Shown: piece by piece, positions 52,001 to 55,000 of the stretch
Position numbering within the stretch: the first letter of the stretch is position 1
How the letters are laid out: the number at the start of each line of letters is the position of its first letter
Assembly (NCBI RefSeq): GCF_988243305.1
Contig: NZ_OZ547136.1
Strand: one strand, 5' to 3'
Length of the DNA: 64,000 nucleotides
Position numbers: made by a program

Positions 52001-55000
52001 GATCTTGGCTTCTTACCTGGAGATATCGCAGAAAAGTTTGCTCCCTATTTTCGTCCGGTCTACGACGTGCTGGTCCGGCGCTTAGGGGCTTCCTTTATGC
52101 AGTACTGCCTGCGACCGGAAATAGGGAAGGTGGAAATTGCGCCGTTCGCCTATATGCGTGGACGTACCTTTGAAAATGCAGTCGTCATTCTTGACGAGGC
52201 GCAGAATGTGACTGCCGCGCAAATGAAAATGTTTTTAACCCGCCTCGGGGAGAACGTGACGGTTATCGTCAACGGTGATATCACGCAATGCGATTTGCCT
52301 CGCGGCGTGCGCTCCGGATTAAGTGACGCGCTGGAACGTTTCGAAGAAGATGAAATGGTCGGGATCGTCCGATTCGGTAAAGAGGATTGCGTACGTTCGG
52401 CACTTTGCCAACGTACGCTACATGCATACAGTTAAGTGTATTATCGGCGCAGAGCCCGGGCGAACCGGGCTTTGTTTTATTTCATTAACAGCAAAGACTT
52501 TCACTTCAGGTTAACGTTCTGGGGGGCGACTTTGAGCGTGTTGATAAGCTGAAATGAATTCTGGTTTAGATACTTTTACCAGGCATTTTTCGTCATAGCA
52601 CGCGACCAATGTAATGCCGCCAGCGCGGAGAGTTTTTTGCCTATCTTTTTCCAGCCATTCAACCTGTACAGGAGGTCTGGTGCCAATTTTGCGTATGAGG
52701 TTTAATCAACAATGGGCCAAAATTTGACTGACTGATTAACACCGAATATATTCTCCTGATTTTATTTTTTAGGGATAATATTAAAAATATAAGGTTAATC
52801 TTAATTAAATTTTTGGCTAATATTGTGTGTTGTTATTTTTTGTGGACGGCAAGCCGCAATGGCAAAATAGGTATGGTTGTAATAATCAAAACATGATACT
52901 AACTATATATAGATCGTTGAATTGTTGGCATGTAACTCGCTACAGCGAGTAGCGTTAGTAATGAAATATAATCAACATGGATAGGTGAAGATTAATTATG
53001 AGCTTTATGGTTTTTGTAACTTGTTTGACAATTGCATTTGTCGCCGGTTTTGCTGTTGCCAGAAAATTGACACTCCGAAAAGTTGCCTCATCGGTAATCA
53101 TCACTAGATCGCAACCAGTCCCTTCCTCTGCAACTTCCCCTGCTGCTAAGGCGTCGACAAGGAGCTATACACCGCAGAAAACCTATCGTGACTCTCGTTG
53201 GCAAGAACGAGATGAGTTGTTCCAGGGAATGGTTGCCGAAGGTATTTTATTGGAAGGAAAAGAGTGGTTAATTACGCGTTGTGAAAAAATTTATTTTGAT
53301 AATCTGGAGAAATGGTTTGGACATTCTTGTCATATCCATTGCCAGGTCTCTCTGGGGCGCTTGATCAACTTTCCAGAACAACCCGAGTTTAGCGAAGAAG
53401 AAAGAAAGCGTTTCTTTGCAATTTATAATGGAATGGCAATGGATTATGTTCTGGTTTCAAAGAAGAACAATAAAATAGTCTGTGTTATTGAGCTGGATGA
53501 GCCGAGTCATGAAAGGGCAGATCGCATTATTCGTGACCGTTGGTTGAATACGATTATGACTATTGCACGGGTGCCTTTTGTACGAGCTTCTGTCACTAAA
53601 TTGGATGAAATCCCTCCGGTCTGGGATACCCGTGACAAAATTCGCCCATTAGCCGCGGCGACAAAGGGTGAACCGTTGCATTAACTAAGTACCCCGGTCA
53701 GGGCTTCTCATCTCCCCCGGTGTGTGCAATATACGAAAAAAAAGCCCGTACCTTCGTACGAGCTCTTCTTTAAAGATGGCGGTGAGGGGGGATTGACTCG
53801 CTTCGCTCGCCCTGCGGGCAGCCCGCTCACTGCGTTCACGGTCTGTCCAACTGGCTGTCGCCAGTTGTCGAACCCCGGTCGGGGCTTCTCATCCCCCTGT
53901 GTGTGCAATATACGAAAAAAAAGCCCGTACCTTCGTACGAGCTCTTCTTTAAAGATGGCGGTGAGGGGGACCGCCTGAAATAAATCTGACTTAATCCAGG
54001 GGTGTTATATAATTTCATTATAAACAATGTATTACACTTTTTGTTGTCCGATATTATCTAATGTATTCTTAGTGAAGCGAGAGACTAATGGCATACTGGA
54101 TGGCATACCAGAGTGACGGGAATTAGCGTATGGCAGTATTGACGGATACGAAAGCAAGACATATCAAACCTGATGACAAACCATTGCCCCATGGGGGAAT
54201 TACCGGACTGACCCTTCATCCTTCTTCAGTAAAGGGGCGGGGGAAATGGGTTTTTCGTTATGTAAGTCCGGTGACACAAAAAAGACGTAATGCTGGATTG
54301 GGAACTTACCCAGAGGTCAGTATTGCTGAAGCTGCACGTACTGCCCGGATAATGCGAGAGCAACTTGCTGCAGGTGATGATCCTCTGGAGATTAAAAAGG
54401 CTGAATCTGAGAAAGTCGCTATCCCAACATTTGCCGATGCAGCCAGGCGTGTACATGCAGAACTGTCTCCTGGATGGGAAAATCCAAAGCATGTAAGGCA
54501 GTGGTTATCGACGCTTGAGAATTACGCGTTTCCTCAACTGGGAGCAAAAACGCTGGATTCGATTACGGCTGCGGACGTGGCAGAAACACTGCGTCCAGTC
54601 TGGTTAACCTTATCAGAAACGGCAAGCCGGGTTAAACAGCGCATTCATGTTGTTATGCAGTGGGGATGGGCGCACGGTTTTTGTGTAGCAAATCCTGTTG
54701 ATGTGGTTGACCATTTGCTTCCTCAGCAGACAAGAGGACGTGATGAACACCAACCCGCAATGCCCTGGAGGCAGTTACCGCTTTTTGTGGCGACCAGTGT
54801 GTATACCGATGAACCTTATAATGTTACCCGCGCACTGTTATTAATGGTGATACTTACAGCAACTCGCTCGGGCGAAGCCAGGGGAATGCGCTGGGCTGAA
54901 ATTGATTTTCATAAGCGGGTATGGACTATACCTGCAGAAAGAATGAAAGCTAGGCTACAGCATCGTGTTCCTTTATCCCGGCAGGCTATTTACATTCTGG

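What the first reader, a model, noticed from the sequence alone, without database searches (positions are those of the whole stretch)
52998..53684. Membrane-anchored DUF2726-like nuclease-fold protein at the island border
This 228-aa ORF has one N-terminal TM helix and a C-terminal block (MDYVLV...IELDEPSHE...DRW) that looks like the DUF2726 / restriction-endonuclease-like fold. It lies between the phoH terminator and the integrase-proximal direct repeats, behind a very AT-rich upstream region. A membrane-tethered nuclease-fold protein at a mobile-element junction is a plausible standalone defence or exclusion factor, or half of a two-gene system whose partner I cannot identify.
Basis: partly seen in the sequence, partly recalled or inferred. 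Interest (0 to 1): 0.55.

Follow-up and report, generated by a model that had tools for sequence, protein, structure and literature searches.

The report
Membrane-anchored DUF2726 nuclease-fold gene
This is a real, intact gene for a small inner-membrane-tethered protein with a restriction-enzyme-like fold, already annotated in databases as DUF2726; it is an old chromosomal resident next to phoH, not part of the neighbouring mobile island, and its function is untested.

Summary

The island-border reading fails. The gene lies on the chromosomal side of the serX attachment site. At least 405 complete E. coli genomes have gene-serX-ghrA with no island, as does the E. albertii type strain. A 71%-identical ortholog follows phoH in some Salmonella.

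In E. coli the locus has two forms: 1049 of 5426 genomes carry this 1.2 kb segment and 4372 carry pgaABCD-dgcT-ycdU instead. The "integrase-proximal repeats" are native RtT-like serX-downstream repeats.

No conserved partner gene exists, and there is no PADLOC hit. RefSeq already names the protein DUF2726; no functional study was found.

About 82% of relatives share the membrane anchor, with predicted N-out, C-in topology. Relatives sit on about 4400 mostly conjugative plasmids, in ICEs and in Vibrio inoviruses.

My best guess, not shown, is a membrane-tethered endonuclease acting on DNA entering the cell, analogous to but not homologous with SNIPE.

The parts
52998..53684 (+). CDS, 228 aa: single-pass membrane-anchored DUF2726 protein (the end coordinate includes the stop codon)
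   Evidence: ORF list. RefSeq annotation of the same gene in other genomes. dN/dS 0.15-0.3 between divergent alleles.
53004..53060 (+). N-terminal transmembrane helix (res 3-21), followed by the basic stretch RKLTLRK. Predicted topology is N-out, C-in.
   Evidence: Kyte-Doolittle 2.43. AlphaFold2 helix 3-30. Across the family, K/R averages 0.31 before the helix and 4.10 after it.
53088..53207 (+). Low-confidence, Ser/Pro/Thr- and basic-rich linker (res 31-70) between the anchor and the domain
   Evidence: pLDDT 52-69 with no secondary structure. This is the most variable part between E. coli and Salmonella.
53265..53612 (+). DUF2726 domain (res 90-205): PD-(D/E)xK fold of the Vsr/DUF559 type
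53487..53510 (+). Core motif I-E165-L-D167-E168-P-S-H171. E165 and H171 are invariant in the family. Position 168 is D in 102 of 104 relatives; this allele alone has E (codon 53499-53501).
   Evidence: Alignment A1. Allele comparison.
52479..52997 (+). AT-rich non-coding leader and promoter region belonging to the same 1.2 kb segment. It contains a sigma-70-like site at 52724-52752 and an AGGTGA Shine-Dalgarno sequence upstream of the ATG.
   Evidence: GC 0.31-0.36. Promoter scan. No K-12 counterpart for 52479-53690. No ORF remnant of a partner gene.
53691..53969 (-). Right boundary, not part of the gene. These are RtT-like serX-downstream repeats, each ending in the 3' end of tRNA-Ser. The second copy abuts the island (integrase at 54130).
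   Evidence: Repeat finder. Rfam RtT 43.5 bits, E=1.2e-6. At least 3 copies next to serX in K-12. RefSeq 'RtT sRNA' features in other genomes.

Best explanation
The gene encodes a stand-alone, single-pass inner-membrane protein.

Supported by analysis:
- A short N-terminal helix anchors it in the membrane, and a roughly 40-residue flexible linker follows.
- The C-terminal DUF2726 domain is a Vsr/DUF559-type PD-(D/E)xK endonuclease fold with the family's invariant set E96, D149, E165, D167, H171, R176, R179 and D180.
- By the positive-inside rule the domain faces the cytoplasm.
- The gene is an old chromosomal accessory gene of the phoH-serX interval. It is present in E. albertii, in about 19% of E. 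coli and in some Salmonella.
- In most E. coli the pga-dgcT-ycdU segment takes its place. The gene is not cargo of the P4-type island that later inserted at the serX 3'-end repeat beside it.

Inferred, not shown:
- The tether keeps a sequence-nonspecific or weakly specific DNA endonuclease at the cytoplasmic face of the membrane, away from the nucleoid.
- It would therefore act preferentially on DNA crossing the inner membrane, such as phage injection, conjugative or inoviral ssDNA entry, or transformation.
- That would make it a one-gene exclusion or defence factor. This is the logic shown experimentally for the unrelated SNIPE nuclease.
For: Architecture and fold:
- Pfam match, hydrophobic helix and AlphaFold2 model with pLDDT 87.
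- AFDB50 hits are all DUF2726 proteins.

Catalytic-type residues:
- They are invariant or at least 90% conserved in 104 relatives, and present here.

Topology:
- 127 of 155 full-length relatives have an N-terminal hydrophobic helix.
- In 122 of those 127 the K/R residues lie after the helix, averaging 4.1 against 0.3 before it.

Independence from the island:
- Island-free genomes carry the gene, as does E. albertii. The Salmonella ortholog is syntenic with phoH.
- The locus has two forms: 1049 genomes carry the gene and 4372 carry phoH-pgaD, out of 5426.
- K-12 lacks window 52479-53690.

Stand-alone status:
- No recurrent neighbour was found.

Selection:
- dN/dS is 0.15-0.3 between divergent alleles, and all sampled alleles are intact.

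Context of relatives carried on mobile elements, all with the same N-terminal helix:
- ICE backbones, downstream of TraG_N and upstream of the integrase, in Pectobacterium, Dickeya and E. coli.
- IncF plasmids, between traT and traD or between finO and repA.
- 4406 plasmids in all, of which 3942 are conjugative.
- Vibrio inoviruses.

Other points:
- One relative carries a C-terminal topoisomerase-type zinc ribbon, which points to DNA as the substrate (P0045).
- SNIPE sets a precedent for self/non-self discrimination by membrane tethering (bioRxiv 10.1101/2025.11.03.685801).
Against: - There is no experimental datum for any DUF2726 protein.
- The protein has no hit in PADLOC or NCBIfam.
- Long vertical retention at one chromosomal site, from Salmonella to E. 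albertii to E. coli, is unlike the rapid turnover typical of defence genes.
- In Anaerobiospirillum the family sits among housekeeping genes.
- Tight neighbours of diverse family members hit R-M or defence models in 7 of 29 cases. A within-locus control 4-6 kb away gave 4 of 20, so no clear enrichment was shown.
- This particular allele has private changes, D168E at a near-invariant position and Y110S, which could weaken activity.
- Topology rests on the positive-inside rule only.
Confidence: 0.4

Rival explanations
1. The domain handles RNA, or performs some membrane-proximal housekeeping step on nucleic acid (RAP-like RNA end binding or cleavage, or repair), rather than acting against foreign DNA.
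For: - tRNA-splicing endonuclease subunits also match.
- The gene is retained at one chromosomal locus across genera.
- Neighbours are housekeeping genes in Anaerobiospirillum.
Against: - The gene is dispensable: 81% of E. coli lack it.
- Relatives are abundant on conjugative plasmids, ICEs and inoviruses.
- The closest bacterial structural relatives (Vsr, I-Bth0305I, TnsA) are DNA endonucleases.
- One relative is fused to a topoisomerase-type zinc ribbon.
Confidence: 0.2
2. The gene is a decaying relic of an old mobile element that once sat at serX. It is silenced by its AT-rich leader and has no current function.
For: - It lies immediately 3' of serX, where islands integrate.
- GC is low in the gene (0.39-0.44) and in the leader (0.31-0.36).
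- The closest non-syntenic relatives are carried on ICEs.
- This allele carries D168E and Y110S.
- Truncated or frameshifted forms exist: P0005, P0007, P0013 and the 151-aa Salmonella form.
Against: - dN/dS is 0.15-0.3, and 0.11-0.25 for the domain.
- 1043 of the 1049 carrier genomes hold at least 80% of the gene.
- The full catalytic set is retained from Salmonella to E. coli at 71% identity.
Confidence: 0.12
3. The protein is a toxic effector held in check by the membrane tether. In this view it is an abortive-infection or addiction-type nuclease released or activated on envelope damage, rather than a direct exclusion nuclease.
For: - It has the same architecture as SNIPE, whose delta-TM form is toxic.
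- In ICEs the homologs lie next to MazEF or VapBC modules.
- In Erwinia the homolog lies after Rhs C-terminal fragments and before VgrG.
Against: - No conserved antitoxin or immunity neighbour was found.
- No protease site or sensor domain is evident.
- The gene is maintained alone in hundreds of genomes.
Confidence: 0.1
4. One reading: the gene is cargo or a border factor of the adjacent integrase island, or half of a two-gene system with a partner in the island.
For: Physical adjacency in this window, with the integrase 446 bp downstream. At most 444 genomes share the junction of gene, RtT repeats and integrase.
Against: - The gene lies outside the tRNA-3'-end repeat that bounds the island.
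- At least 405 genomes have gene-serX-ghrA with no island.
- The same integrase sits at serX in genomes that lack the gene (H72-H78).
- E. albertii and Salmonella show the same synteny.
- No conserved partner exists.
Confidence: 0.03

Closest known systems
Pfam DUF2726 (PF10881), assigned to the PD-(D/E)xK superfamily (Steczkiewicz et al. 2012, PMC3424549) and described as a 'REase fold DNase' (Anantharaman et al. 2013, PMC3710099)
   Same: A full-length domain match and the motif pattern E...D...ELDDxSH...R..RD. The usual family architecture, an N-terminal hydrophobic helix followed by the domain, is also shared. RefSeq already gives the protein this name.
   Different: Nothing essential. This allele has E instead of the near-invariant D at position 168. 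The subfamily adds a conserved SRWxxRDELFxGM helix in front of the domain.
Vsr endonuclease and DUF559-type proteins (1cw0; NGO0050 3hrl; homing endonuclease I-Bth0305I 3r3p)
   Different: Sequence identity is only 10-16%, with no detectable sequence-level match to any PDB chain. Those proteins are soluble, while this one is membrane-tethered. Their substrates (T/G mismatch, homing site) cannot be transferred to this protein.
SNIPE (TM + DUF4041 + GIY-YIG; Saxton et al., bioRxiv 10.1101/2025.11.03.685801)
   Same: A short N-out segment, one TM helix and a cytoplasmic nuclease domain, encoded by a single gene. This gives a plausible shared logic of sparing self DNA by localisation.
   Different: The nuclease fold is unrelated (GIY-YIG against PD-(D/E)xK), there is no DUF4041 and there is no PADLOC hit. 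No evidence exists that this protein meets phage DNA or tape-measure proteins. It is an analogue, not a homologue.
IncF plasmid 'YihA' DUF2726 proteins and the ICE and inovirus homologs
   Same: The same TM-linker-DUF2726 architecture and the same invariant residues. All are uncharacterised.
   Different: Identity is 24-28% to the IncF proteins, about 34-37% to the inovirus proteins and 37-49% to the ICE proteins. Those genes are carried on mobile elements, near traT/traD, finO/repA, TraG_N or G4P. This one is a fixed chromosomal gene.
RAP domain (eukaryotic organellar RNA-binding PD-(D/E)xK-like domain)
   Different: Identity is 7-11% and rmsd is large over long alignments (13-18 A). RAP proteins are eukaryotic, soluble and bind RNA.

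Membership tests
Pfam DUF2726 (PF10881) | Significant match to the family HMM over most of its length | tested here: met
   i-E=1.5e-18, 67.2 bits, model positions 3-116 of 126.
Pfam DUF2726 (PF10881) | Conserved residue pattern E / D / E-L-D-D-x-S/T-H / R-x-x-R-D | tested here: met
   E96, D149, E165, L166, D167, H171, R176, R179 and D180 are all present. Position 168 is E instead of D.
PD-(D/E)xK (restriction-endonuclease-like) superfamily, Vsr/DUF559 branch | Alpha-beta-beta-beta-alpha-beta core fold | tested here: met
PD-(D/E)xK (restriction-endonuclease-like) superfamily, Vsr/DUF559 branch | Metal-dependent phosphodiesterase activity | not testable with these tools
   Inferred only from conservation of acidic and His residues.
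SNIPE defence system | GIY-YIG nuclease domain and DUF4041 DNA-binding domain | tested here: not met
   Pfam finds only DUF2726 and PADLOC finds nothing at E<=1.
SNIPE defence system | N-out single TM helix with a cytoplasmic nuclease | tested here: inconclusive
   The hydrophobic helix and positive-inside charge bias are present, but no dedicated topology predictor or experiment was available.
Any catalogued anti-phage defence system (PADLOC-DB 2.0) | Match to a model of a known or candidate defence protein | tested here: not met
   0 families at E<=1.
Cargo of the serX-integrated P4-type island | Lies between the island's attachment-site repeats and co-occurs with the integrase | tested here: not met
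   The gene lies outside the tRNA-3'-end repeat. At least 405 genomes have gene-serX-ghrA without an island, and the same integrase occurs without the gene.
Two-gene (toxin-immunity or sensor-effector) module | A conserved adjacent partner gene | tested here: not met
   There are no shared neighbour clusters beyond within-genus synteny in 72 loci. Upstream ORFs in the ICE, plasmid and Erwinia contexts are unrelated to each other, and no remnant lies in the 519-bp leader.

The most novel reading that the evidence does not exclude
DUF2726 as a whole is a large, unrecognised class of inner-membrane-tethered Vsr-like endonucleases that destroy DNA as it crosses the membrane. Conjugative plasmids (IncF 'YihA'), ICEs and filamentous phages would use it to exclude rivals. 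The phoH-serX copy would be a domesticated chromosomal version that limits phage, plasmid or transformation uptake in about a fifth of E. coli strains. This would be a PD-(D/E)xK counterpart of SNIPE.
Probability: 0.25. Interest if true: 0.7.

Novelty: already known. Interest (0 to 1): 0.3.

Why it matters
For this locus the result is mostly corrective:
- The gene is an ordinary, already-annotated DUF2726 family member.
- Its position beside an island is a coincidence, because it sits next to the integration hotspot serX.
- The repeats are native RtT-like elements.

Two wider points may be useful:
- The phoH-serX interval in E. coli comes in two forms, this 1.2 kb gene or the 10.9 kb pga-dgcT-ycdU segment. 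The small form is shared with E. albertii and Salmonella, which bears on the history of the pga biofilm locus.
- DUF2726 is an uncharacterised, very widespread family, found on thousands of conjugative plasmids, whose standard architecture is a membrane-tethered nuclease fold. After SNIPE, such proteins are obvious and cheap candidates to test for localisation-based exclusion of incoming DNA.

Tried and rejected
- PADLOC and NCBIfam scans of the protein found nothing. PHROGs returned only an unknown-function family.
- Sequence searches of the PDB, with the single protein and with a profile, found nothing meaningful. Fold comparison was needed instead.
- No tRNA gene lies in the window or in the fetched flanks, so the repeats are not a live tRNA.
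- I looked for a partner gene. The small ORFs in the leader have no match to the ORFs upstream of the homologs in ICEs, in an IncF plasmid and in Erwinia, and those ORFs are unrelated to each other.
- Clustering neighbours over 72 diverse loci gave only within-genus synteny.
- Context look-ups for three metagenomic representatives landed on contigs of 1.4-2.9 kb and were uninformative.
- The defence-neighbourhood test was inconclusive. Seven of 29 tight neighbours hit R-M or defence models, against 4 of 20 for ORFs 4-6 kb away in the same loci. There was no genome-wide control.
- A functional link to phoH was considered and rejected. A terminator and a 560-bp AT-rich gap separate the two genes, 81% of E. 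coli have phoH without this gene, and homologs elsewhere are not next to phoH.
- A lipoprotein or Sec signal peptide was considered and rejected from the sequence. There is no basic n-region and no lipobox, and the positive charges follow the helix.
- Literature searches for DUF2726, PF10881 and plasmid yihA found no functional work.
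Full report
**1.

- The ORF at 52998-53684 (+) starts at ATG and encodes 228 aa.
- A single strongly hydrophobic stretch lies at res 3-21 (Kyte-Doolittle 2.43).
- Pfam gives one domain, DUF2726 (PF10881), at i-E=1.5e-18 over res 90-205.
- Upstream is a hairpin with a T-run at 52449-52475 that ends phoH. After it comes about 520 bp of non-coding DNA with GC 0.31-0.36.
- Downstream are two 78-nt direct repeats, 99% identical and 179 bp apart, at 53713-53790 and 53892-53969. A tyrosine integrase gene follows at 54130.
- RefSeq already annotates this gene as 'DUF2726 domain-containing protein'.

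**2. What the repeats are**

- On the minus strand each repeat unit ends in the last 16-19 nt of tRNA-Ser (serX), preceded by the sequence that lies downstream of serX in other genomes.
- Rfam scores the unit as RtT RNA at 43.5 bits, E=1.2e-6, just under the gathering score of 45. RefSeq labels the same units 'RtT sRNA' in other genomes.
- K-12 has at least three copies between ycdU and serX.
- They are therefore native serX-downstream repeats, not island-made duplications.
- The window holds no tRNA gene at all. I infer that the island has inserted at a tRNA-3'-end copy and that intact serX lies beyond the window.

**3. The gene is not island cargo**

- In GN03551 and 13P477T the order is phoH - DUF2726 - (RtT) - serX - ghrA, with no integrase.
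- A junction probe from GN03551 needs the gene's 3' part to reach 80% coverage. It is matched at 80% or more in 405 complete genomes.
- The junction with this integrase is matched in at most 444 genomes. Some of those have RtT plus integrase without the gene (H72-H78).
- The E. albertii type strain has efeOB - phoH - DUF2726 (87% aa identity) - RtT - serX - ghrA.
- A 71%-identical Salmonella ortholog lies directly after phoH, followed by an IS element and a serX-3'-end remnant.
- In K-12, window 52479-53690 has no counterpart. Instead there are 10.9 kb carrying pgaDCBA, dgcT, IS3, ymdE and ycdU.
- Across 5426 complete E. coli genomes, 1049 carry the gene and 4372 carry the phoH-pgaD junction. 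Together that is 5421, so the two states are near-exclusive alternatives.
- Because E. albertii and Salmonella share the small state, it is probably the older one. This is inference.

**4. The protein**

- An alignment of 104 relatives (A1) has E96, E165, H171, R179 and D180 invariant. D149, L166, D167, D168 and R176 are at least 90% conserved.
- AlphaFold2 run with this alignment gives mean pLDDT 87. It predicts a helix at 3-30, an unstructured 31-70 (pLDDT about 52-69), a short helix at 71-80 and an alpha/beta core at 94-222 with pLDDT above 90.
- This agrees with the published placement of DUF2726 in that superfamily (PMC3424549, PMC3710099).
- No PDB chain is detectable by sequence. AFDB50 returns only unnamed DUF2726 proteins.
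- Between divergent E. coli alleles, dN/dS is 0.15-0.3, and 0.11-0.25 in the domain. All sampled copies are intact.
- The window's allele is unusual in two codons. It has S110 where the other E. coli alleles have Y. It has E168 where 102 of 104 relatives have D. The second change is conservative, but the position is near-invariant.

**5. The membrane anchor is the family norm**

- Of 155 full-length relatives with the ELDxxxH motif, 127 have an N-terminal hydrophobic 17-mer, with a median start at residue 4.
- K/R residues average 0.31 in the 15 residues before the helix and 4.10 in the 15 after it. The bias holds in 122 of the 127.
- By the positive-inside rule the domain faces the cytoplasm. 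This is a prediction, not a measurement.

**6. No partner gene**

- ORFs upstream of homologs in three ICEs, in an IncF plasmid and in Erwinia are unrelated to one another. None matches the 519-bp leader here.
- Clustering all ORFs within 6 kb of the gene in 72 loci from different species gave no recurrent neighbour. The only exception was housekeeping synteny within Anaerobiospirillum and its relatives.

**7. Where relatives live**

- The closest non-syntenic relatives (37-49% identity) sit at a fixed place in MPF-G-type ICEs of Pectobacterium, Dickeya and E. coli. They lie after TraU...TraG_N and a variable TA module, and before an Integrase_1 gene.
- One sits in an Erwinia T6SS/Rhs island.
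- More distant relatives (24-29% identity) lie on conjugative plasmids. Examples are traT-hyp-DUF2726-traD in IncF, TraG_N-proximal in pKL53-S, and finO-...-DUF2726 ('yihA')-PLD nuclease-repA in IncFII(K).
- A search with the IncF protein finds 4406 plasmids, of which 3942 are typed conjugative.
- Six Vibrio inovirus genomes match the protein. In the one examined, the DUF2726 gene follows the G4P secretin gene.
- The full-length plasmid and inovirus proteins that I translated all begin with a hydrophobic helix.

**8. Defence association is not established**

- The protein hits no PADLOC model.
- Among 29 tightly linked same-strand neighbours of diverse family members, 7 hit R-M or defence models at E<1e-5. 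Five of these are strong: a type III-like REase, a type II REase, an HNH protein, a type I MTase and a methyl-directed REase.
- Twenty ORFs 4-6 kb away in the same loci gave 4 hits, one or two of them strong.
- Some family members clearly sit in R-M-rich regions. Without a genome-wide background this is only suggestive.

**9. Literature**

- Eight papers mention DUF2726. None tests a function.
- Plasmid 'yihA' appears only as a label, and one paper confuses it with the chromosomal GTPase YihA.
- SNIPE is a single-pass membrane protein with a cytoplasmic GIY-YIG nuclease. It cleaves lambda DNA during injection, and its TM-less form attacks the chromosome.
- SNIPE is the best functional analogy, but it shares neither the nuclease fold nor DUF4041 with this protein.

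**10. Verdict**

- Shown: this is a real, conserved, stand-alone gene for a membrane-anchored Vsr/DUF559-type PD-(D/E)xK protein. It is resident in the phoH-serX interval independently of the island, and it is the alternative to the pga segment.
- Inferred: the domain is cytoplasmic and nuclease-active, and it acts on DNA at the membrane.
- My preferred mechanism is exclusion of incoming DNA, at roughly 0.3-0.4. It rests on the architecture, on the habitat of relatives on mobile elements and on the SNIPE precedent.
- As a finding it is an already-annotated member of a known but uncharacterised family. Any interest lies in the family, not in this locus.

Noticed in passing
window 52479-53690 versus L007 (K-12) 2100-12962: The phoH-serX interval in E. 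coli has two forms. 1049 of 5426 complete genomes carry this 1.2 kb DUF2726 segment, and 4372 carry pgaDCBA-dgcT-(IS3)-ymdE-ycdU instead. E. albertii and Salmonella share the small form, so carriers of the DUF2726 gene lack the pga biofilm locus at this site.
   Followed up: yes
window 53691-53969 (-): The repeats are RtT-like units, each ending in the serX 3' end. No tRNA gene lies anywhere in the 64 kb window. The island beginning at about 53970 therefore separates these units from serX, which must lie beyond the window end.
   Followed up: partly
window 52300-52430 (-): An Rfam match to Ysr251 (Yersinia sRNA 251) scores 117 bits against a gathering score of 100. It is antisense to the 3' end of phoH and is cut off by the edge of the stretch I searched.
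   Followed up: no
window 55519-57336 (-): A 605-aa ORF with very low GC (about 0.30-0.34) lies right after the integrase. RefSeq calls it a hypothetical protein, and it has no PADLOC hit. In one genome it is split by IS600.
   Followed up: partly
window 53325-53327 and 53499-53501: This strain's allele has two private amino-acid changes in the domain, Y110S and D168E. The second is at a position that is D in 102 of 104 relatives.
   Followed up: partly
L001 15082-25692 (same island in strain SW4848): Annotated island cargo downstream of the integrase comprises a frameshifted IS1, an AlpA-like HTH protein, DUF3987 and YfjI proteins, an inovirus-type Gp2 protein, a TOTE conflict-system primase fragment and a large AAA-domain protein.
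   Followed up: no
L109 4806-5456; L020 4881-5384; L108 4878-5456: IncF plasmids carry TM-DUF2726 genes, either between finO and repA (labelled 'yihA') or between traT and traD. 4406 PLSDB plasmids match, 3942 of them conjugative. One paper (PMC4794485) treats plasmid yihA as the chromosomal GTPase YihA, which is a confusion of names.
   Followed up: partly
L012 5077-6636: In Erwinia the homolog follows Rhs-type fragments (YD repeats and a DPxGL boundary motif). It precedes a module of VgrG, DUF2169, a PAAR-like phospholipase and an ankyrin protein.
   Followed up: no
P0043, P0044, P0045: Some relatives have two tandem DUF2726 domains with long low-complexity tails (P0043, P0044). P0045 carries a C-terminal topoisomerase-type zinc ribbon.
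   Followed up: no
P0009, P0010 (Salmonella): The commonest Salmonella form is annotated as 151 aa, starting at the Met equivalent to res 78 and so lacking the TM helix and linker. It is seen on about 1000 contigs. I did not check whether this reflects a frameshift or a start-site call.
   Followed up: no
L028: A 1450-bp contig filed under a Collinsella MAG encodes this protein at 98% identity. It is probably E. coli DNA binned into the wrong genome.
   Followed up: no
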